A stretch of 64,000 nucleotides of DNA, from assembly GCA_036397855.1 (NCBI GenBank), contig DASWID010000128.1, positions 10,747 through 74,746 of the forward strand, written 5' to 3'. The notes under the pieces are model-generated. The model made no database searches and was not told where the DNA came from. It worked only from the letters and a program-made list of their open reading frames with translations. Of this stretch, positions 25,098-53,274 are shown piece by piece; position 1 is the stretch's first letter, and every line of letters begins with the position of its first letter. The position numbers were made by a program, and so were the translations under genes. This stretch comes from Thermodesulfobacteriota bacterium. Its GTDB lineage: Bacteria > Desulfobacterota_D > UBA1144 > Nemesobacterales > CSP1-2.

Positions 25098-25619
25098 ATG
25101 GCAGGAAAAGAAAACCTTAATAATCCAAGGAGAAAAGTTAAATTAGATAGAAGCACTCTTCATGAAATGATCGAGAAAAAGGCATACGAGATTTATGAAA
25201 AAAGAGGTAAAGAACATGGCAAAGCTCTGGATGACTGGGTCGAGGCAGAGATGGAAGTTAAAAATAACATGGTGTGTGATCCCAAAACAATGGAGAACAT
25301 TAGTGGAGAAGTGATAAGCATTGAGAGAATTACTCTAATTAAGAAAATGTTCCATGGGGTACATATGACAGTAAAAACGGATAACGAAATAATCTCTGTT
25401 CACTTGGGTCCTGGATGGTATATTGATAGGCAAGATATCAAGATTGAACCAAAAGGTAAAGTTGAGGTTAAAGGTTCCAGAATTAATTGTGAAGGAAGGA
25501 CGTCTATAATTGCAACCGAGGTGAAAAGGGGCAAGGAGTTTTTAAGACTTTGTAATGAAAATGGATTTCCGGTTTGGGTTGGCGCAAAAAAACATAAATT
25601 TGTAAGGCCATCGGACTAA
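25098..25619 (+). CDS. DUF2934 domain protein with an uncharacterised C-terminal domain
   Basis: KAYEIYEKRGKEHGKALDDWVEAE matches the DUF2934 signature. AAGGAGG RBS. Confidence 0.55.
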   Translation: MAGKENLNNPRRKVKLDRSTLHEMIEKKAYEIYEKRGKEHGKALDDWVEAEMEVKNNMVCDPKTMENISGEVISIERITLIKKMFHGVHMTVKTDNEIISVHLGPGWYIDRQDIKIEPKGKVEVKGSRINCEGRTSIIATEVKRGKEFLRLCNENGFPVWVGAKKHKFVRPSD

Positions 25620-25813: not shown

Positions 25814-26212
25814 CTAAGAACAACTGGATTTAGGCGAAATAGCTGCCGCAAAATCAAACCCCAAGATGCTGCTGATTAGGTTATTATATTCTAGAAGCTC
25901 GGCCATTAATTTTTGCTGTGATTGAGCCTGACGTTGTGTGACGGGGTGGGAATTTATCTTCTGCCTAAGATCTCTGATCCTATCGATATCTTCCTGAGCG
26001 AGAGTTTTCTGTGCTTGCTTAGAATGGAACTCTTGTGATAACCGTGCAAACTCCTTGCTCAGTCGGAGGAGCGCTGGGTTTGTTTCGAATTCCCTTTTTG
26101 AGTTATTAAATACCTTAACTGAATCAGAGTTATCCAGGTAGACAATCAATTCTTCGACAACTGATTTTAGGCGTTCGTCAATCATAGTCTTTCTCCCTGA
26201 TTTTAACAACAT
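25814..26212 (-). CDS. YlbF/YmcA (RicF/RicA)-like helical protein with Cys-containing C-terminus
   Basis: Paralog of 26203-26574: both end ...LGFDFA + Cys tail (SPKSSCS here). Overlaps its neighbour by about 10 nt. Confidence 0.55.
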   Translation of the reverse strand: MLLKSGRKTMIDERLKSVVEELIVYLDNSDSVKVFNNSKREFETNPALLRLSKEFARLSQEFHSKQAQKTLAQEDIDRIRDLRQKINSHPVTQRQAQSQQKLMAELLEYNNLISSILGFDFAAAISPKSSCS

Positions 26213-26574
26213 CCGCCTCCCGATTGCATCATACTGGCAAAATCAAAGCCTAGTCTACGGCTTATCAAGGCGTTTAACTCTCGAAGCATATGAAGCAATT
26301 CTTCCTGTGCCTGGAAATACTCTCTTAAGGTAGGATTACTAAGAAGCTCAACTCTCACTTGCTCAATAACTTTAAGGTCATCACTAGAGGCTCCGTTCCA
26401 CAAACTGATCATCTGATAAGATTGAAGCTTTTTATCATACTCTGTAAGCATGCGCCAGGCATTCTTATCATTGCGAATCTGATTCATCGCTTCTTCATAT
26501 CTCCGAAACTGAGTGGAATCCCCTACCGATATTGCAAACTCTTTTACAAGATTAAATCTTCTTGTTTCACTCAT
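26203..26574 (-). CDS. YlbF/YmcA (RicF/RicA)-like helical protein with Gly/Cys C-terminal tail
   Basis: About 120-aa helical protein ending RRLGFDFASMMQSGGGCC, resembling the B. subtilis YlbF Cys-rich C-terminus. Confidence 0.55.
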   Translation of the reverse strand: MSETRRFNLVKEFAISVGDSTQFRRYEEAMNQIRNDKNAWRMLTEYDKKLQSYQMISLWNGASSDDLKVIEQVRVELLSNPTLREYFQAQEELLHMLRELNALISRRLGFDFASMMQSGGGCC

Positions 26575-26600
26575 GATAAGTCGTCCTCTCTAAACTCAAT

Positions 26601-26978
26601 TTAACCTCTACTCCCAATCGGCATAACCTGAGAAATTCCCAGTTTCTCAAGCCCTTCTCTGATCACTCTTTCCGATAGCTTTCCACCGCTATGAATAAGC
26701 TTGCCATTTATTGTGATAATGGGTGGAGTAATCTGTTCTTTCCGTATTAATTCAAGAATCTCGGGAAATTCGAAGGATTCAGGAGAAAATATCTCAATAA
26801 ACTCTGTTTCCACACGGTGTCCGTATCTTTTATCCAGGCGCCTCGCAAGCATCTCAGAAGCGGCTTTCCACGTTTTGGATTCATCACATCCCTCGATAGG
26901 AAAAGCGAAAATACGAACCTTTACAATCCTGTCATTCTCCACAACTAGCAGCACCCCGCACCCGATAATGGCCCACAA
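26601..26978 (-). CDS. ArsD-like thioredoxin-fold protein (lacks the ArsD Cys12-Cys13 pair)
   Basis: The C-terminal half aligns with ArsD (VETEFIEIFSPESFEFPEILELI...ITINGKLIHSGGKL vs the ArsD VERYLLSQQGPKFIQNPQIL...VTLVNGKVV). The real start is probably the GTG just after the upstream stop at about 26950. Confidence 0.45.
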   Translation of the reverse strand: MWAIIGCGVLLVVENDRIVKVRIFAFPIEGCDESKTWKAASEMLARRLDKRYGHRVETEFIEIFSPESFEFPEILELIRKEQITPPIITINGKLIHSGGKLSERVIREGLEKLGISQVMPIGSRG

Positions 26979-27166
26979 CCGGGAGGCACGCCCCCTCTAG
27001 CTCCAGATTTACTGCCAATTCCAACGTTCACACTTCCCAATACCTGATAAGTATCGTCAGAATTGCACTTCGGACATACCGGTTTGATTCCTTTTTCCTT
27101 CTCCGCGAGTGTAGCCCACACGTCGAATGTTTCTCCGCAATTATTACATTCATATTCGTAAATCAC
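26945..27166 (-). CDS. FmdB-family zinc-ribbon protein with Gly/Cys-rich C-terminal tail
   Basis: CNNCG...CPKC zinc ribbon, with a tail ending ...GCGPLSGAGCC. Start overlaps the arsA stop. Confidence 0.6.
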   Translation of the reverse strand: MIYEYECNNCGETFDVWATLAEKEKGIKPVCPKCNSDDTYQVLGSVNVGIGSKSGARGGVPPGCGPLSGAGCC

Positions 27167-29046
27167 TTTGCTGCCTCCTTGTCTCTTTTAACTGGCTTTG
27201 ATCCAAATAATTCCTCGGCAGCACGCTTAATACTGTCAATCCCTCTTATCTCATCATCGGCAAGCGGCATTATTATCATAGGCAAATTGAAGAGCTCCTC
27301 TGCATGGAAAATATATTTTTCCTGCATCATACGGCGCCGAGTGAAGTATTCGTTCGTGCAGTATTCAGGCATTAGAACCTGATTGGCAACAACAAACTGA
27401 GTCGGTATGCCCGCTTCTTTTAAATCCTTCATTGCACGATAGGCTTCAATAACAGGAGTGGACTCAGGATAAAACACAAAAGCGAAGACCGAACGCTTCG
27501 GATCCTTCATCCTGTTTATGATGCGATTGAGACGCTTCTGTGTCTCTCCTTTTACCCCTTCGCTTTTCTCTGTTGTCGCCACCATCAAACCTACCTGCTC
27601 GCTGTAATCAAATGGAAGCTCAAGAAGCCTCAATGTATGACCGGTCGGAGCGGTATCAAATACGATTACATCGTACTCGTCGCTCTCTGCATAAGTCATG
27701 AACTTATCAAATGCAGCCATCTCTTCCGTACAGGGTGATTCCAGCTCCTCGCGAATTGCGACCAACATATCATCCGAGTATTTCGTACTTGCGTCTTCGA
27801 GAATTTTTTCCTTGTATTCTTCTACGGCCCTTTCCTGGTCAATGATAACAGCCCAGAGATTACCAACACCTTCCACCTTCTTGACAGTGTCCTCAATTTT
27901 CTGCTCAAGAACTTCGCCAATGTGCGAAGCGGGATCAGTAGTAAGGAGAAGTGTTTTATGTCCCCTGCTTGCCAGATGGAAAGCAGTTACGCACGATATA
28001 GTAGTTTTACCTACACCTCCCTTACCCGTAAAAAAGATCGATTTAGTCTGGCCTTGAGGAGTAATCAAATTCATCACCGATTCTGAATCCAAAGTATCAA
28101 AGCCTGTTTTTAACTCTGATCCGCTTTCATGCCCAAAGGAAAATCCGCCTACATCCCTATCATACTCGTAGAGGGAGTTTGAAATATTTTTAAGTCTTGC
28201 AATTCCCTTTATCTCACCATCTCTCTGATAAACGTGCTTTTTTGGCACAGGGAAAATCTCATTGATTTTTTTGAGGTGTTTTTGTTGCATTTCATAACGT
28301 TTATTAAAAAAGACATTCTCACAGACTTCCTCTGGAAGGATTCCGTTAACAATAAGCTCGATATTTTTAACACCGATTGTATTCAGCTCATCGGAGGACC
28401 TTATTGTCTCGTAAATTGATGTTTTATCTGGCTGCAAGACAAAAACGAATTTAGTTCGGCTCGGGTCAGCGAGAAGATTTATTGCCTCATCATACTTCTT
28501 TTTGTTTGCCTGAATATTCGCAACAGGTCCTACACACGTATTACCGCTTCCTTTGGCACTCTCCTCGATGTGCCTGCTCCAATCCAAAGGAAGCTCAAGC
28601 AAACGGATGGTGTGACCGGTAGGAGCAGTATCAAAAATCACAACATCATATTTCCCATTTCCCTCAGACGAGTCACCAGCTATAAAGTCAACGAAACGGT
28701 CAAACGAGGCTATCTCCGTAGTACAGGGTGAGTTGAACTGCTCTTCCAGGACTTTCATAACATCGTCAGGCATTACCCGACGCATAGGAGCGAGGATACG
28801 CTCGCGGTATTCTTCTGTCGCTTTGTCCGGGTCAATTTCCATTCCCCAAACATTTGGTATTCCAAGTGGTGTTATTTTATGTCCGATTTCCCTTTCAAAT
28901 ACATCAGCCAGATTCGAAGCGGGGTCGGTCGTAATGATCAGGGTTTTGAGACCGCTTTCTGCATAATGGACTGCTGTAGCGCAGGCCATCGTTGTCTTTC
29001 CAACACCTCCCTTGCCTGAAAAAAAGATATATTCCGTATTACGCAT
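27163..29046 (-). CDS. arsA: arsenical pump-driving ATPase ArsA (two-domain)
   Basis: Two P-loops (GKGGVGKTT), two DTAPTGHT signature motifs, and Cys residues matching the E. coli ArsA C113/C172/C422 positions (SPCTTEIASFD, NTCVGP, SPCTEEMAAFD). Confidence 0.85.
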   Translation of the reverse strand: MRNTEYIFFSGKGGVGKTTMACATAVHYAESGLKTLIITTDPASNLADVFEREIGHKITPLGIPNVWGMEIDPDKATEEYRERILAPMRRVMPDDVMKVLEEQFNSPCTTEIASFDRFVDFIAGDSSEGNGKYDVVIFDTAPTGHTIRLLELPLDWSRHIEESAKGSGNTCVGPVANIQANKKKYDEAINLLADPSRTKFVFVLQPDKTSIYETIRSSDELNTIGVKNIELIVNGILPEEVCENVFFNKRYEMQQKHLKKINEIFPVPKKHVYQRDGEIKGIARLKNISNSLYEYDRDVGGFSFGHESGSELKTGFDTLDSESVMNLITPQGQTKSIFFTGKGGVGKTTISCVTAFHLASRGHKTLLLTTDPASHIGEVLEQKIEDTVKKVEGVGNLWAVIIDQERAVEEYKEKILEDASTKYSDDMLVAIREELESPCTEEMAAFDKFMTYAESDEYDVIVFDTAPTGHTLRLLELPFDYSEQVGLMVATTEKSEGVKGETQKRLNRIINRMKDPKRSVFAFVFYPESTPVIEAYRAMKDLKEAGIPTQFVVANQVLMPEYCTNEYFTRRRMMQEKYIFHAEELFNLPMIIMPLADDEIRGIDSIKRAAEELFGSKPVKRDKEAAK

Positions 29047-29050
29047 TCAA

Positions 29051-29401
29051 TTACCCTCCAACATACTCGACTAGCTCGTCATAGGAAGGATACTCCTTTT
29101 GCTTTACCACCTTTCCGTTCACCAAAGTCACAGGTAAAACATTAACTCCTCCAGATTTTAGCAATGAAAGAATCTGCGGGTTCTGTATGAACTTCGGTCC
29201 TTGCTGCGAGAGCAGATAACGTTCTACCTCTATCTTTCCGTTAAACTTTTTATAAATATTCAGAATGGCTTCATTCATATCGAGTAACGCCGGATCGATA
29301 GTCGGCCCGCAAAGACCGCCCGGGCAGCACATAGGGGGATCGAAAATCTCTATCAAAATCGATTTATTTTCAGTCATGACTAACCCTCCTTGAATATTCA
29401 A
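29051..29401 (-). CDS. arsD: arsenic metallochaperone ArsD
   Basis: FDPPMCCPGGLCG matches the ArsD Cys12-Cys13-Cys18 motif; length of about 116 aa. Confidence 0.8.
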   Translation of the reverse strand: MNIQGGLVMTENKSILIEIFDPPMCCPGGLCGPTIDPALLDMNEAILNIYKKFNGKIEVERYLLSQQGPKFIQNPQILSLLKSGGVNVLPVTLVNGKVVKQKEYPSYDELVEYVGG

Positions 29402-29529
29402 TTAGCTTATTATTTCTGAGCCTTACCATTTACTGAAATACATGCAATCACAAGACCATGAACTTTACTTTCAAGACATATTTGATTCATAATGACATTA
29501 TGGATACAAAACAAAATCACTATACATCC

Positions 29530-29997
29530 TTAGGTTTTCAGAAGAATTCTCCTTTTATTATCGATCATTCGCGATAGTTCTTTCTGAGCAACAAAACCAA
29601 CAACACACTTTCCCTCCTCACGTATCAACAGTCGAAACTCAAGATTAGATTTATCTTTTTCCAGGTCTTCACTATTTAAGAACTTTTTCAGGAAGGAGAA
29701 AAGCATCTTGTTTAACCCACCGTCTCTTTTTAGACAATAATATGACCAGGTGCCTCTCCTTCTTACATCAACCACACCGGAATTCTTAAGAATCATGAGA
29801 TGCTTGGATATTTGATATTGAGGAATTTTTAAAGTATCTACCATTTCGCAAACACAAAGTGAATCACATGCAAGTAGAAGATTAACGATCCTCAATCTGG
29901 TTTCGTCCCCCAATGATTTAAAAATATCAGCGTGAATCATTTTATATATCCCTATCCCCAACTTATATGCCTGTATGCCAATATAAGCATATGCCAA
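29530..29997 (-). CDS. arsR: ArsR/SmtB-family metalloregulator
   Basis: Winged HTH plus the metal(loid)-binding ...SLCVCEM... site. The likely start is the internal ATG (MIHADIFKSLGD). Confidence 0.75.
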   Translation of the reverse strand: MAYAYIGIQAYKLGIGIYKMIHADIFKSLGDETRLRIVNLLLACDSLCVCEMVDTLKIPQYQISKHLMILKNSGVVDVRRRGTWSYYCLKRDGGLNKMLFSFLKKFLNSEDLEKDKSNLEFRLLIREEGKCVVGFVAQKELSRMIDNKRRILLKT

Positions 29998-30045
29998 TTA
30001 TAATTACGCTTCCTAAATTGTCAAGTCCTCGCATTGACTCATCAG

Positions 30046-31437
30046 AAATCTATTTGAAGAAGAATCGTTGCCTCATCTAAGAATCTATTCAAAATAGTCT
30101 CCCCCTAGAAAGATAACGGGAGGCATAGATGAGGCTAACCATGGAAGAAAGAAGATCGGTCACTGCAGTAGTGGCGAAGAGGTATCAGAAAGCCACTAAA
30201 AAGGAGAAAGGCACCATCCTTGGAGAGTACACACAACTGACCGTGTATAATCGCTGTTACGCCGCTTTTTTGTTAAGGAATCATGGCCGGAGAGTGAGGA
30301 TCAATAATAACACTGTTTTGGTGGGGGACTGTAGAAAGAGGGTTAAGAGGACCAGGGACAGGACCTACGATGAGCAGGTAGTTAGGGTTTTGAAGAGGGT
30401 ATGGCTGATCATGGGTTTTATATGCGGTAAGAGACTTAAGCCAGCCTTGAAGGAGGTCATTCCCGTCTTGGAGAAGTATAAGGAGATAGAGCTGGATAAG
30501 ACCGTCAGAGAGAAATTGTCTAAGATCTCTGCCGCCACTATAGACAGAGTATTAGCTCCGGAGCGTAAGAAAAGGTCCCTTCGCCAAAGAGCCAGGACTA
30601 AGCCGGGCACATTACTCAAGCATCAGATACCGATAAGGACCTTCTCTGAGTGGGATGAGCAAAGACCGGGTTTTGTAGAGATAGACCTGGTGGGGCACGA
30701 GGGAGGAGACCCCAGTGGGGATTATATCCAGACCCTGGATATGACCGATGTATGCACCGGTTGGACTGAGACCCAGGCGGTTAAGAACAAGGCCCGGGTG
30801 TGGGTGTTTGAGGCACTTAAGGAAATAAGAAAGCGCTTACCTTTTAAGCTCTTGGGAATAGATTCAGACAATGGGTCAGAGTTTATAAACGATCATCTCT
30901 ATCGTTATTGCGAGGAGGAGAAGATCACTTTTACCAGGGCCCGAGCTTATCGGAAGAATGATAACTGCTACGTAGAGCAAAAGAACTACTCAGTGGTCAG
31001 GCGTGGGGTGGGTTATCATCGTTACGATACTCCCCAGCAACTACGACTGTTAAACCAACTGTATTCCCGCTTAAGGCTATATACTAACTACTTCCAGCCG
31101 GTGATGAAACTGGAGGAAAAGATTCGGGTGGGAAGCAAGGTGAAAAAGAGGTATGACCAGCCAAGGACACCATACCAGAGGGTGTTAGAAGCACCCCTGG
31201 GGGAGAAAGAAAAAAAGGAAAAGTTAAACCAAGAGTATGCTAAACTAAATCCGGCAGAACTGAGAAGACAGATAACCACACTACAAATTAAACTCAGAAA
31301 GTTGGCAGCAAAAGAAAATTTAAAAAAAAGAAATCACAAACAGAATTACAAAAATGAAGAAAATGAAAAGGATTTAGAGTATATTTCTGGTGAGGCAACG
31401 AATTAACTTTCAAATAGATTTTTATGTGAGGCAATAG
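30046..31437 (+). mobile_element. insertion sequence (about 1.4 kb) with composite imperfect terminal inverted repeats
   Basis: Left end AAATCTATTTGAAGAAGAATCGTTGCCTCA (30046-30075) matches the reverse complement of the right end (31391-31421) at about 26/30 positions. Extra half-sites lie at 30081-30096 and 31425-31437, so exact boundaries are uncertain by roughly 20 bp. The element encloses a single DDE transposase gene. Confidence 0.7.
30129..31406 (+). CDS. DDE-type (rve integrase-core) transposase; IS family not assigned
   Basis: N-terminal HTH; D (VEIDLVGHEGG), D (GIDSDNGSEF) and E (CYVEQKN) catalytic triad of the rve family. The stop codon lies inside the right terminal repeat. Confidence 0.8.
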   Translation: MRLTMEERRSVTAVVAKRYQKATKKEKGTILGEYTQLTVYNRCYAAFLLRNHGRRVRINNNTVLVGDCRKRVKRTRDRTYDEQVVRVLKRVWLIMGFICGKRLKPALKEVIPVLEKYKEIELDKTVREKLSKISAATIDRVLAPERKKRSLRQRARTKPGTLLKHQIPIRTFSEWDEQRPGFVEIDLVGHEGGDPSGDYIQTLDMTDVCTGWTETQAVKNKARVWVFEALKEIRKRLPFKLLGIDSDNGSEFINDHLYRYCEEEKITFTRARAYRKNDNCYVEQKNYSVVRRGVGYHRYDTPQQLRLLNQLYSRLRLYTNYFQPVMKLEEKIRVGSKVKKRYDQPRTPYQRVLEAPLGEKEKKEKLNQEYAKLNPAELRRQITTLQIKLRKLAAKENLKKRNHKQNYKNEENEKDLEYISGEATN

Positions 31438-52917: not shown

Positions 52918-53274
52918 GGGGGCGAAATGGCTTCGACGGGGAATGGGATAGCTTGAGCTGCATGTCGAGCTTCTGTTAACTCGTAAAACTGGCAGAGCAC
53001 GTAAAAGTGCCGAACCAATTAATGCACTCGCAGCCTAAATAGAGCTGTGACGTCTCTAAAAACCTCACCCGTTGGGTTTTTATGAGGCGCCGAATAGACG
53101 GGTTAGTTGGTTGTTGGTGCTTGAGACATAAACTGACGAAACAAATTCTCAAGCTGGAAGTGAAAATCCTGCCCATCGGAGATTTCACTTTGAGAATATA
53201 AGGCTGGGCTAAACATGTAGAAGCTGGGTGAAGCTCTTTCTCGGACCTGGGTTCGATTCCCAGCGCCTCCACCA
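52918..53274 (+). ncRNA. ssrA: transfer-messenger RNA (tmRNA, SsrA)
   Basis: 5' end GGGGGCGAAAUGGCUUCGACGGG; 3' tRNA-like end GGACCUGGGUUCGAUUCCCAGCGCCUCCACCA. The internal tag reading frame GCC GAA CCA ATT AAT GCA CTC GCA GCC TAA reads (A)AEPINALAA-stop. Positioned immediately downstream of smpB. Confidence 0.9.

What the first reader, a model, noticed from the sequence alone, without database searches (positions are those of the whole stretch)
25814..29997. Atypical arsRDA operon extended by four small Cys-rich accessory genes and lacking any pump or reductase
**Observation.** Seven tightly coupled minus-strand genes (overlaps or gaps of 10 nt or less) run in this order:
- ArsR, with its CVC metalloid site
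- ArsD, with the CC..C motif
- a bona fide two-domain ArsA, with all three metalloid-binding Cys positions conserved
- an FmdB-type zinc ribbon ending ...GCGPLSGAGCC
- an ArsD-like thioredoxin-fold protein without the CC pair
- two paralogous YlbF/YmcA (RicF/RicA)-like helical proteins, ending ...LGFDFA...GGGCC and ...LGFDFA...SSCS

**Inference from established knowledge.** In B. subtilis, YlbF and YmcA pair with YaaT to hold [4Fe-4S] clusters through their Cys-rich tails. The conserved Cys and TGHT residues imply ArsA and ArsD are a functional As(III)/Sb(III)-activated ATPase plus metallochaperone. Canonical ars operons pair them with an ArsB/Acr3 pump and usually ArsC. No pump or ArsC is encoded in this window; the nearest membrane transporter is an MFS gene 12 kb away on the other side of an IS. 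I infer that the four thiol-rich proteins are a novel ArsA-associated relay or sensor module. It could be an Fe-S-based or thiolate-based metalloid-handling complex, or a pump-independent ArsA function.
Basis: partly seen in the sequence, partly recalled or inferred. Interest (0 to 1): 0.75.

Follow-up and report, generated by a model that had tools for sequence, protein, structure and literature searches.

The report
ArsA operon with cysteine-tailed helper proteins
An arsenic-resistance operon carries four small proteins with cysteine-rich tail ends that recur beside a special form of the ArsA ATPase in bacteria of several phyla and in salt-loving archaea, so they are probably untested arsenite-handling helpers rather than chance neighbours.

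Summary
The seven minus-strand genes are real: arsR, arsD, arsA, a zinc ribbon ending GCC*, a one-Cys thioredoxin-fold protein, and two YlbF-like paralogs ending GGGCC* and SSCS*. No Acr3, ArsB, ArsP or ArsC lies in the 64-kb window.

The four small genes form a conserved module. More than 50 loci from Desulfobacterota, Ignavibacteriota/Bacteroidota, Spirochaetota, KSB1 and KSB3 carry it beside arsD-arsA.

NCBI already names the haloarchaeal counterpart arsD-arsA-hcsL-hcsS ("halo-CC-star"). I found no paper on it.

Three patterns found here:
- ArsA next to these genes has two extra conserved Cys in the segment homologous to the Get3 CxxC hinge. Six control ArsAs lack them.
- ArsD in these loci never has the C-terminal Cys-Cys tail that five of six control ArsDs carry. 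The tail sits on separate proteins instead.
- A CoaC-like flavoprotein follows the YlbF pair only where both proteins end exactly in Cys.

Best reading: thiolate-tail As(III)/Sb(III) carriers working with ArsD and ArsA. This is inferred, not shown. Pump independence is not general, because most relatives carry Acr3 or ArsB in the same cluster. Pump-less cassettes do recur, including pNRC100 of Halobacterium NRC-1.

The parts
29997..30024 (-). Promoter of the operon: TTGACA-16 nt-TATAAT, 12 of 12 consensus matches. It is followed by repeated TTGGCATA motifs that may be the ArsR operator.
   Evidence: only 12/12 site in the region; sequence. Function is inferred, not tested.
29530..29940 (-). 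arsR: ArsR/SmtB metalloregulator with LCVCE. It has a C-terminal extension (..REEGKCVVGFV) shared with the ArsR of related loci. The listed ORF runs to the TTG at 29997, but the likely start is the ATG at 29940.
   Evidence: (NF033788 83.9 bits, cut-off 55).
29051..29377 (-). arsD: metallochaperone with the N-terminal CCx4C site and no C-terminal Cys tail. The ATG at 29377 follows AAGGAGG; the listed ORF starts at the TTG at 29401.
   Evidence: (NF033727 101 bits, cut-off 90).
27163..29046 (-). arsA: two-domain ATPase of the haloarchaeal-type clade. The three metalloid cysteines are C108, C171 and C439. Two clade-specific cysteines are C242 (LPEEVCENVFF) and C563 (EYCTNEYF).
   Evidence: (ArsA_halo 677 bits, TIGR04291 508 bits).
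26945..27166 (-). FmdB-type zinc ribbon (CxxC...CxxC) with a Gly-rich tail ending CGPLSGAGCC*.
   Evidence: (TIGR02605 42.9 bits, cut-off 31.3).
26601..26942 (-). Thioredoxin-fold protein (YuzD/ArsD-like) with one conserved Cys (EGCD) in the beta1-alpha1 loop and a conserved SGGKLSER motif. The likely start is the GTG at 26942; the listed ORF starts at the TTG at 26978.
26203..26574 (-). YlbF-like protein 'a' (HcsL-like), ending LGFDFASMMQSGGGCC*.
   Evidence: PF06133 54.4 bits; HcsL 66 bits, E 3.5e-18.
25814..26185 (-). YlbF-like protein 'b', ending LGFDFAAAISPKSSCS*. The likely start is the ATG at 26185, after GGGAG; the listed ORF starts at 26212.
   Evidence: (PF06133 45.8 bits).

Best explanation
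This is an As(III)/Sb(III)-inducible arsRDA cassette of a distinct, haloarchaeal-type ArsA clade. In this clade the Cys-Cys tail that classical ArsD carries on its own C-terminus has moved onto four separate small proteins.

**Proposed mechanism (inferred).**
- ArsR releases the strong promoter when it binds metalloid.
- The two YlbF-like paralogs form a RicA/RicF-type heterodimer. Their flexible tails offer 2+1 thiolates.
- The zinc ribbon offers a C-x(n)-CC tail, and the thioredoxin-fold protein offers one loop Cys.
- Three thiolates is the geometry As(III) prefers, so these tails capture As(III).
- They pass it by thiol exchange to the ArsD CCx4C site and the ArsA Cys108/171/439 site. They may dock at the extra Cys242/Cys563 pair of this ArsA clade.
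- ArsA then spends ATP to hand the metalloid to an Acr3 or ArsB pump. That pump lies in the same cluster in most relatives and would be encoded elsewhere in this genome.

**Shown here:** gene content, conservation of the module, the tail motifs, the ArsA and ArsD co-variation, and homology to RicA/RicF.

**Inferred:** heterodimer formation, metalloid binding, transfer to ArsD or ArsA, and the existence of a distal pump.
For: **Linkage to ArsA.** The module sits beside arsD-arsA in loci from at least five bacterial phyla. In six of six haloarchaeal plasmids inspected it appears as arsD-arsA-hcsL-hcsS.

**Tail conservation.** The zinc ribbon ends GCC*, YlbFa ends GGCC*, and YlbFb ends C* or CC*. 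Of the 150 closest family representatives, 142 carry a terminal Cys motif.

**Complementary distribution with ArsD.** None of 27 ArsDs in these loci has a Cys in its last 15 residues. Five of six control ArsDs end in Cys tails, for example SCCGGNTSCC* and GGCCGGDGGCC*. Those tails resemble zinc-ribbon tails such as GGGCCGGSGSGCC*. The R773 ArsD C-terminal vicinal pairs are implicated in metalloid sensing (PMC4562236, citing Li et al. 2001).

**A distinct ArsA clade.** C242 is present in 27 of 27 module-linked ArsAs and C563 in 24 of 26. Neither is present in six of six control ArsAs, nor in the E. coli or L. ferriphilum structures. The closest plasmid ArsAs are all haloarchaeal.

**Heterodimer.** The two genes are always an adjacent paralogous pair. 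About ten independent natural tandem fusions exist. The family profile matches RicF and RicA at E about 1e-11. RicAF is a heterodimer that uses 2+1 tail cysteines (PMC6751060).

**Vicinal Cys chemistry.** Adjacent cysteines suit As(III) better than a single Fe-S cluster. In RicT, the adjacent C166 and C167 ligate different clusters.

**Same theme on another scaffold.** An Alicyclobacillus ars plasmid has a CMD protein ending SSCGCGSGSCCS* before arsD.
Against: - No binding or transfer has been measured for any member.
- The module occurs once without ArsA (L030, with ArsP) and once outside any ars context (L029, next to Fe-S flavoproteins).
- Fe-S-related neighbours appear in some loci: DUF59, and a SufBD-core protein with an ABC ATPase (SufCD-like).
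- No pump is visible in the 64-kb window, so the last step is unsupported for this genome.
- The correlation with the CoaC-like flavoprotein hints that in many lineages the tails are chemically modified. The model does not explain this.
- All controls for the ArsA and ArsD co-variation come from six plasmid loci.
Confidence: 0.5

Rival explanations
1. Ric-like iron-sulfur module. The YlbFa/YlbFb tails (2+1 Cys), with a fourth ligand from the thioredoxin-fold Cys or the zinc-ribbon tail, hold a [4Fe-4S] or [2Fe-2S] cluster. The complex would sense As(III) damage, protect or repair Fe-S proteins, or act as a redox partner. It would not carry arsenite.
For: - The family is homologous to RicF, RicA and YheA.
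- RicAFT cluster 2 is ligated by RicF C134 and C146, RicA C141 and RicT C167. That is the same 2+1 tail pattern.
- DUF59 (FeS_assembly_P) recurs in related loci, and a SufBD-core protein with an ABC ATPase appears in L002.
- In L029 the pair sits next to Fe-S flavoproteins.
Against: - No RicT/PSP1 gene appears in any inspected locus.
- Vicinal CC pairs are atypical ligands for one cluster.
- The tails mirror the ArsD C-terminal tails and are distributed complementarily to them.
- Linkage is to arsD-arsA, not to suf or isc genes.
- The window itself has no Fe-S assembly gene nearby.
Confidence: 0.2
2. Pump-independent ArsA function. In this clade ArsA uses ATP to load As(III) onto, or strip it from, the Cys-tailed carrier proteins. 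This would be sequestration or hand-off to an unknown exporter, so the seven-gene cassette would confer resistance without Acr3 or ArsB.
For: - Self-contained pump-less cassettes recur: the window, L009 with unrelated flanks, L031, L042, L047 and L049, and the plasmids pNRC100, L074 and L076.
- In Halobacterium NRC-1 the arsADRC region confers arsenite resistance, while knockout of the chromosomal arsB homolog had no phenotype (PMC1447603; PMC3600143).
- hcsL and hcsS lie directly after arsA there.
Against: - Most related loci include Acr3 or ArsB inside the cluster.
- All three canonical ArsA metalloid cysteines and both DTAPTGHT motifs are kept, as expected for a pump-coupled ArsA.
- A distal pump cannot be excluded for any pump-less locus.
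- Stoichiometric sequestration is a poor resistance strategy.
Confidence: 0.15
3. The tails are substrates for C-terminal cysteine modification. A CoaC/EpiD-type flavoprotein would carry out oxidative decarboxylation to an aminoenethiol or cysteamine end. The modified end, not plain thiolates, would be the functional group. The window would then hold a degenerate version that lacks the enzyme.
For: - A 188-aa stand-alone CoaC-like HFCD flavoprotein (TIGR00521 N-terminal half, about 210 bits; weak CypD hit) follows YlbFb directly in about 20 loci.
- In 19 of the 20 loci that have it, YlbFa ends GGCC* and YlbFb ends A[SA]C*. The one exception (L016) is a split YlbFb ORF whose real end is APAASC*. 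In 12 of 23 loci without it, a G or S follows the last Cys. Fisher p = 8.5e-4, not corrected for phylogeny.
Against: - The enzyme is absent from the window, from L009 and from all haloarchaeal loci.
- Natural fusions keep the first Cys cluster internal, so a free C-terminus is not required there.
- No dehydratase or cyclase of RiPP type is nearby.
- The flavoprotein could serve CoA synthesis.
Confidence: 0.08

Closest known systems
Haloarchaeal 'halo-CC-star' genes hcsL and hcsS beside ArsA_halo (NCBIfam NF041416, NF041415, NF041417). They are annotation only, with no published function found.
   Same: - The order arsD-arsA is followed at once by a YlbF-like protein ending GGGCC* and a second protein with a CC* tail.
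- YlbFa aligns end to end with HcsL at 31% identity, E 3e-19.
- The window ArsA is closest to haloarchaeal ArsA at 45% identity and shares Cys242.
- ArsD lacks a Cys tail in both systems.
   Different: - The organism is bacterial (Thermodesulfobacteriota MAG).
- Scores fall below the equivalog cut-offs: 66 and 31 bits against 140, and ArsA 677 against 800.
- The second partner is a full-length YlbF paralog, not the truncated 62-74-aa HcsS.
- There are two extra members, the zinc ribbon and the thioredoxin-fold protein.
- ArsA also has the second extra Cys (C563), which haloarchaeal ArsA lacks.
Classical arsRDABC operon (E. coli R773 type; the Salmonella pSGI4 copy was inspected here)
   Same: ArsR with CVC, ArsD with the Cys12/13/18 site, and two-domain ArsA with Cys113/172/422 and DTAPTGHT.
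   Different: - No arsB or arsC.
- ArsD lacks the C-terminal CC pairs.
- ArsA has two extra cysteines and is only about 36% identical to classical bacterial ArsA.
- Four extra genes follow arsA.
B. subtilis RicA (YmcA) / RicF (YlbF) / RicT (YaaT) complex
   Same: - The Com_YlbF helical fold family.
- A paralogous pair.
- Ligand cysteines in the C-terminal tails in a 2+1 pattern.
   Different: - No RicT partner is seen nearby.
- The tails are much shorter and end in CC* or C*, after a conserved LGFDFA motif.
- The context is an ars operon, not RNase Y or development.
- The Firmicute equivalog score is far below cut-off: 20.7 and 15 bits against 130.
C-terminal vicinal cysteine pairs of R773-type ArsD (Cys112-113, Cys119-120)
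   Same: Gly-rich tails ending CC* in an ars operon. The zinc-ribbon tails GGGCCGGSGSGCC* and GGGCCGGGNCC* resemble the ArsD tails SCCGGNTSCC* and GGCCGGDGGCC*.
   Different: The tail is carried in trans on other scaffolds (zinc ribbon, YlbF-like). The resemblance is at motif level, and common descent is not shown.
Get3/TRC40 zinc hinge (CxxC from each monomer)
   Same: The clade-specific Cys242 and Cys563 lie in the segment that aligns with the Get3 CxxC motif, one in each ArsA half.
   Different: - There is one Cys per half, not CxxC.
- The exact column differs by 0-3 residues between alignments.
- Metal binding and spatial proximity were not tested.

Membership tests
ArsA arsenite-stimulated ATPase (TIGR04291 / ArsA_halo NF041417) | Two tandem ArsA/Get3 P-loop halves, each with a DTAPTGHT signal-transduction motif | tested here: met
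   PF02374 scores 502 bits in two stretches. DTAPTGHTIRLL and DTAPTGHTLRLL are both in the translation.
ArsA arsenite-stimulated ATPase (TIGR04291 / ArsA_halo NF041417) | Metalloid-site cysteines equivalent to E. coli Cys113, Cys172 and Cys422 | tested here: met
   The alignment to 1f48 places C108, C171 and C439 opposite C113, C172 and C422. They are conserved in 96-100% of related ArsAs.
ArsA arsenite-stimulated ATPase (TIGR04291 / ArsA_halo NF041417) | Score above the curated equivalog cut-off | tested here: not met
   TIGR04291 scores 508 bits against 650. ArsA_halo scores 677 against 800. Only the subfamily model TIGR00345 is passed, at 501 against 135.
ArsA arsenite-stimulated ATPase (TIGR04291 / ArsA_halo NF041417) | Partner membrane pump (ArsB or Acr3) | tested here: not met
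   None in the 64-kb window. The rest of the genome could not be searched.
ArsD metallochaperone | ArsD domain above cut-off with the Cys12-Cys13-x4-Cys18 site | tested here: met
   NF033727 scores 101 bits against 90, and PF06953 scores 101 bits. The motif is MCCPGGLC.
ArsR/SmtB As(III) repressor | Winged HTH with the CVC metalloid site | tested here: met
   NF033788 scores 83.9 bits against 55. The motif is SLCVCEMV. DNA and metalloid binding were not tested.
halo-CC-star HcsL/HcsS (NCBIfam equivalogs) | Score above the equivalog cut-off | tested here: not met
   HcsL scores 66.1 bits (YlbFa) and 31 bits (YlbFb) against 140. HcsS scores 14.7 against 55.
halo-CC-star HcsL/HcsS (NCBIfam equivalogs) | YlbF-like body with a C-terminal CC, encoded just after an ArsA_halo-type arsA | tested here: met
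   In the window the zinc-ribbon and thioredoxin-fold genes lie between arsA and the pair.
RicA/RicF (YmcA/YlbF) Fe-S complex | Com_YlbF domain | tested here: met
   PF06133 scores 54.4 and 45.8 bits against 23.9. The family profile hits 6prk RicF and 6prh RicA at E about 1e-11.
RicA/RicF (YmcA/YlbF) Fe-S complex | RicT (YaaT, PSP1) third subunit supplying cluster ligands | tested here: not met
   No PSP1-family gene appears in any locus with precomputed Pfam calls. This was not searched genome-wide.
RicA/RicF (YmcA/YlbF) Fe-S complex | Bound [4Fe-4S] cluster | not testable with these tools
   This needs anaerobic purification and spectroscopy.
FmdB-type zinc ribbon (TIGR02605 / PF09723) | Two CxxC motifs in an N-terminal ribbon of about 40 aa, above cut-off | tested here: met
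   TIGR02605 scores 42.9 bits against 31.3, and PF09723 scores 42.6 against 34.4. The motifs are CNNC and CPKC.
YuzD/DUF1462 and ArsD thioredoxin-fold proteins | Sequence membership: Pfam cut-off, or the ArsD CCx4C site | tested here: not met
   PF07315 scores 16 bits against 25, and there is no ArsD hit. Only one conserved Cys is present.
YuzD/DUF1462 and ArsD thioredoxin-fold proteins | Thioredoxin fold resembling YuzD or ArsD | tested here: met
   The model has pLDDT 84. The best PDB hit is 1xg8 (E 9e-5), with ArsD 3mwh and 3kgk at ranks 18 and 24. hhalign to ArsD gives 70% probability, E 4e-5.

The most novel reading that the evidence does not exclude
The Cys-Cys tails of the carrier proteins insert at the A1-A2 hinge of this ArsA clade. 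There they complete an intermolecular thiolate site with the clade-specific Cys242 and Cys563, at the position of the Get3 zinc hinge. ArsA would then be an ATP-driven loader or unloader of protein-bound As(III). The arsDA plus CC-tail cassette would work without ArsB or Acr3. That would explain the long-standing observation that arsenite resistance in Halobacterium NRC-1 needs the arsA region but not arsB. In lineages with the CoaC-like flavoprotein, the terminal Cys would additionally be decarboxylated.
Probability: 0.12. Interest if true: 0.85.

Novelty: new variant of a known kind. Interest (0 to 1): 0.68.

Why it matters
ArsA and ArsD are the textbook example of a metallochaperone feeding a pump ATPase. 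This work defines a second, widespread architecture across at least five bacterial phyla and the haloarchaea.

- ArsA carries two extra cysteines.
- ArsD has lost its Cys-Cys tail.
- Up to four small Cys-tailed proteins take that tail's place.

None of these proteins has been studied experimentally, and the only trace I found is an NCBI family name.

The finding gives concrete candidates for the unknown partner inferred in 2004 for Halobacterium NRC-1, where arsB is dispensable. It also links the YlbF/RicAF fold to metalloid handling.

Last, it suggests a possible new protein C-terminal cysteine modification by a CoaC paralog. All of these ideas can be tested with simple genetics and metal-binding assays.

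Tried and rejected
- **Literature.** Searches for 'halo-CC-star', HcsL/HcsS, YlbF with arsenic or ArsA, and FmdB with arsA found nothing relevant. The one YlbF-plus-arsenic paper concerns ordinary Firmicute YlbF. Castillo & Saier 2010 on ArsA operons does not mention these genes. The primary Halobacterium paper (PMC400623) is not held, so I cite two reviews instead.
- **Word-indexed homology search.** The search with YlbFa alone found only four near-identical proteins. The exhaustive HMMER search was needed to see the family.
- **Metagenome scan.** A narrower alignment worked, but it biases YlbFa tails towards KPAGGCC.
- **Profile search for the thioredoxin-fold family.** A profile search against PDB sequences gave nothing. 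Only the fold comparison was informative.
- **'YlbF regulators hitch-hiking by chance' rejected.** The conservation and tail motifs rule it out.
- **'The IS removed a pump' rejected as the sole explanation.** L009, L031, L042, L047 and L049 have the same pump-less cassette without that IS.
- **The MFS gene 12 kb away rejected as the partner pump.** It is a Bcr/Tet-type transporter and is unlinked in relatives.
- **No terminator.** No convincing intrinsic terminator was found after the last gene.
- **No multimer model.** The tools could not make one, and model coordinates are not returned. The Cys242-Cys563 distance could therefore not be measured.

Full report
**1. What is in the window**

ORF listing confirms seven consecutive minus-strand genes between 25814 and 29997. 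Pfam and NCBIfam identify them as follows:
- ArsR: NF033788, 83.9 bits; LCVCE.
- ArsD: NF033727, 101 bits against a cut-off of 90; MCCPGGLC.
- A two-domain ArsA: PF02374, 502 bits.
- An FmdB-type zinc ribbon: TIGR02605, 42.9 bits against 31.3; it ends GCGPLSGAGCC*.
- A 113-125-aa protein with no family above cut-off.
- Two Com_YlbF proteins: 54.4 and 45.8 bits against 23.9; they end LGFDFASMMQSGGGCC* and LGFDFAAAISPKSSCS*.

Alignment to E. coli ArsA (1f48) places window C108, C171 and C439 opposite Cys113, Cys172 and Cys422. Both DTAPTGHT motifs are present.

A 12/12 consensus sigma-70 promoter (TTGACA-16-TATAAT) lies at 30024-29997. It overlaps the listed TTG start of arsR. The true starts are probably the ATG at 29940 (arsR), the ATG at 29377 (arsD, after AAGGAGG), the GTG at 26942 (thioredoxin-fold gene) and the ATG at 26185 (second YlbF gene). 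With these starts the junctions are 152, 4, -4, 2, 26 and 17 nt. The operon is compact, but not 'gaps of 10 nt or less' throughout.

A tmRNA gene shows that the organism is a bacterium. An identical protein is labelled Thermodesulfobacteriota MAG.

**2. No pump or reductase in the window**

A hydropathy scan found only four multi-TM ORFs. They are a Bcr/Tet-type MFS transporter 12 kb away, MlaE and two unassigned ORFs.

I ran tblastn against all 64 kb with Acr3, ArsB, ArsP, LMW-ArsC, partial Grx-ArsC, ArsM-like, CoaC-like, CMD, DUF59 and Usp seeds taken from related loci. Only the seven operon genes were hit.

**3. The four small genes are a conserved ArsA-linked module**

Homologs of the thioredoxin-fold protein sit in clusters that also hold the zinc ribbon, the YlbF pair, ArsA and ArsD. 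This holds in Ca. Vecturithrix and in several metagenomic lineages.

A genome-collection scan with the thioredoxin-fold alignment returned 20 loci. They come from Desulfobacterota, Bacteroidota, Ignavibacteriota/Melioribacter, Spirochaetota (including cultured Rectinema subterraneum) and KSB3.

Mapping seed proteins onto stop-to-stop ORFs showed arsR-arsD-arsA plus the module in nearly all of them.

An independent metagenome scan keyed only on the YlbFa tail returned 32 loci. Wherever at least 2 kb of upstream sequence was present, ArsA preceded the module in 20 of 22.

Tails are conserved across phyla:
- The zinc ribbon ends ...C(GP)x(n)GCC*.
- YlbFa ends GFDFAx(5-6)GGCC*.
- YlbFb ends GFDFx(7-8)[SA]C* or CC*.
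- In some lineages a G or S follows the last Cys.

An exhaustive HMMER search found 522 clusters at 50% identity. Of the best 150, 142 end in C*, CC*, Cx* or CCx*. About ten are tandem fusions of two YlbF domains that keep both Cys clusters.

**4. Relation to known things**

*halo-CC-star.* The best NCBIfam hit of both YlbF-like proteins is 'halo-CC-star protein HcsL', below cut-off. The best hit of ArsA is 'ArsA_halo'. Among 72,556 plasmids, tblastn with YlbFa hits only haloarchaeal hcsL. Of 2,126 plasmid ArsA records, the 25 closest to the window ArsA are all haloarchaeal at 43-45% identity. Classical bacterial ArsA is about 36% identical.

Six haloarchaeal plasmids all show overlapping arsD-arsA-hcsL-hcsS. 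HcsL ends GGGCC*. HcsS is a truncated YlbFb-like protein ending CC*. One of the six is pNRC100 of Halobacterium NRC-1. There the arsADRC region confers arsenite resistance, while knockout of the chromosomal arsB homolog had no phenotype (PMC1447603; PMC3600143).

I found no paper that mentions these genes.

*RicA/RicF.* The family profile matches solved YheA, RicF, RicA and YmcA structures at E 1e-10 to 1e-13. RicAF is a heterodimer. RicF C134 and C146 and RicA C141, all in C-terminal tails, ligate a [4Fe-4S] cluster together with RicT C167 (PMC6751060).

*The thioredoxin-fold protein.* The model has pLDDT 84. It best matches the YuzD-type protein 1xg8, then thioredoxins, and ArsD at ranks 18 and 24. 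hhalign to an ArsD alignment gives 70% probability over the C-terminal 43 columns. Only one Cys is conserved, in the beta1-alpha1 loop.

**5. Co-variation patterns found here**

*(a) ArsA.* In an alignment of 27 ArsAs from module-bearing loci and six controls (Clostridium, B. cereus, L. plantarum, E. faecalis, Listeria, Salmonella):
- Every module-linked ArsA has Cys at window position 242 (LPxEVCExPFF).
- 24 of 26 have Cys at position 563 (EYCTNEYF); the haloarchaeal ArsAs have Gly.
- No control has either Cys.
- The E. coli and L. ferriphilum ArsA structures also lack them.
- These two pseudo-symmetric positions fall in the segment that aligns with the Get3 CxxC zinc-hinge motif. The alignment is exact for S. 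pombe Get3 in the A1 half and offset by 1-3 residues in others.

*(b) ArsD.* None of 27 distinct ArsDs from module-bearing loci has a Cys in the last 15 residues. Five of six control ArsDs end in Cys tails: SCCGGNTSCC*, GGCCGGDGGCC*, RCCGGEGCC*, SCCSPSSGCC and GCGTSGKKGSC*. Zinc-ribbon tails such as GGGCCGGSGSGCC* look like these ArsD tails. The R773 ArsD C-terminal vicinal pairs are implicated in metalloid sensing (PMC4562236). An Alicyclobacillus ars plasmid puts a similar tail (SSCGCGSGSCCS*) on a CMD protein.

*(c) The CoaC-like flavoprotein.* A 188-aa stand-alone CoaC-like flavoprotein matches the CoaBC N-terminal half at about 210 bits. It follows YlbFb in about 20 loci. In 19 of the 20 loci that have it, YlbFa ends GGCC* and YlbFb ends A[SA]C*; the one exception (L016) is a split YlbFb ORF whose real end is APAASC*. 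In 12 of 23 loci without it, a residue follows the last Cys, as in the window (SSCS*). Fisher p = 8.5e-4, not corrected for phylogeny.

**6. Pump or no pump**

Most relatives carry Acr3 or ArsB, often with LMW ArsC, ArsP, Usp and a small thioredoxin, in the same cluster. The module is therefore not a substitute for a pump in general.

The bare cassette arsR-arsD-arsA-Zn-(Trx)-Ya-Yb(-CoaC-like) nevertheless recurs:
- L009, the closest relative. Its ArsA, Zn and Trx proteins are 82-88% identical to the window's, but its flanks are unrelated. Those flanks hold a molybdopterin oxidoreductase and a porin.
- L031 from a soda-lake sediment.
- L042, L047 and L049.
- Three of the six haloarchaeal plasmids.

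The cassette thus behaves as a self-contained, mobile unit. The IS next to arsR in the window is not needed to explain the missing pump.

Exceptions to ArsA linkage also exist. L030 has the module with ArsP and ArsC but no ArsA. L029 has a YlbF-CC pair next to Fe-S flavoproteins and no ars genes within 10 kb.

**7. Most likely mechanism**

Shown: the module is genetically tied to arsD and to a distinct ArsA clade. Its conserved feature is the terminal Cys motif. The Cys tail is present either on ArsD or on these proteins, not both.

Inferred:
- YlbFa and YlbFb form a RicAF-like heterodimer that offers 2+1 thiolates.
- The zinc-ribbon tail and the single thioredoxin-fold Cys offer further thiolates.
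- These bind As(III)/Sb(III) in three-sulfur sites and exchange it with ArsD and ArsA.
- ArsA then energises export by a pump encoded nearby or elsewhere.

I give this about 0.5. The rivals are:
- A Ric-like Fe-S sensor or repair module (0.2). It is favoured by the homology and by DUF59 and SufCD-like neighbours. It is disfavoured by the absence of RicT, by the vicinal CC chemistry and by the ArsD-tail complementarity.
- A truly pump-independent ArsA cycle (0.15).
- A modification-centred function involving the CoaC-like enzyme (0.08). This does not apply directly to the window, which lacks that gene.

**8. Verdict**

The inference of an ArsA-associated thiol module is well supported and can be made much sharper. 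The claim of complete novelty is tempered by the existing NCBI 'halo-CC-star' names. Pump independence remains a minority possibility.

The bacterial four-protein version, the ArsA hinge-cysteine clade, the cis/trans switch of the ArsD tail and the CoaC-like link appear undescribed in the literature I could search.

Noticed in passing
L002:4424-4990, L006:11154-11720, L030:10394-10972, L031:10376-10882 and about 16 further loci (not in the window): A stand-alone CoaC-like HFCD flavoprotein sits directly after the second YlbF-like gene. Its presence goes with tails that end exactly in Cys (GGCC* and A[SA]C*). This suggests C-terminal cysteine decarboxylation of these proteins.
   Followed up: partly
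window 30129-31406 (+): A 425-aa transposase with a weak rve integrase-core hit lies divergently, about 100 nt upstream of the arsR promoter. No convincing terminal inverted repeats were found. Related pump-less cassettes lack this IS.
   Followed up: partly
window 25098-25619 (+): A convergent 173-aa gene has a DUF2934 N-terminus. In the syntenic contig L001 it has a precomputed MamS_MamX hit. It is conserved next to the operon in the closest relative but absent from other module loci.
   Followed up: no
L009:2041-6156 and L009:11686-13071: In the closest relative the cassette is flanked by a 1089-aa molybdopterin oxidoreductase with a 4Fe-4S dicluster subunit, and by a phosphate-selective porin O/P. 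This may be an arsenate or arsenite redox enzyme (Arr/Arx-like). It was not classified.
   Followed up: no
L029:9590-10384: A Cys-tailed YlbF pair (GGCC* and SSCCG*) sits outside any ars context. It lies between an FGE-sulfatase-family gene and two Fe-S/FAD oxidoreductase genes. The family is therefore broader than arsenic islands.
   Followed up: no
L030:6480-11525: A KSB1 locus has ArsR, ArsP, an ArsD-like protein, the zinc ribbon, the YlbF pair, the CoaC-like gene and ArsC but no ArsA. The module can therefore occur without the ATPase.
   Followed up: no
L006:5094-7301, L007 and L041: ArsD and ArsA are fused into one 735-aa protein in one lineage that carries the module.
   Followed up: no
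L073:4393-4668 (Alicyclobacillus sp. SO9 plasmid): A CMD/AhpD-like protein ends in SSCGCGSGSCCS*. It sits directly before a tail-less arsD and a split arsA. This is another scaffold carrying a Cys tail in an ars operon.
   Followed up: no
L002:6802-7023, L030:6887-7311: Small 68-73-aa paralogous proteins (..F[DH]ALSPE..K..L...GP..C.EFM..) recur near arsR in two distant module loci. No family was assigned.
   Followed up: no
window 52918-53274 (+): A tmRNA gene with tag peptide AEPINALAA. It was used only to establish that the organism is a bacterium.
   Followed up: no
window 26601-29046 versus L009: ArsA, the zinc ribbon and the thioredoxin-fold protein are 82-88% identical between the window and L009. 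ArsR and the two YlbF-like proteins are only 46-59% identical. This may reflect recombination within the cassette.
   Followed up: no
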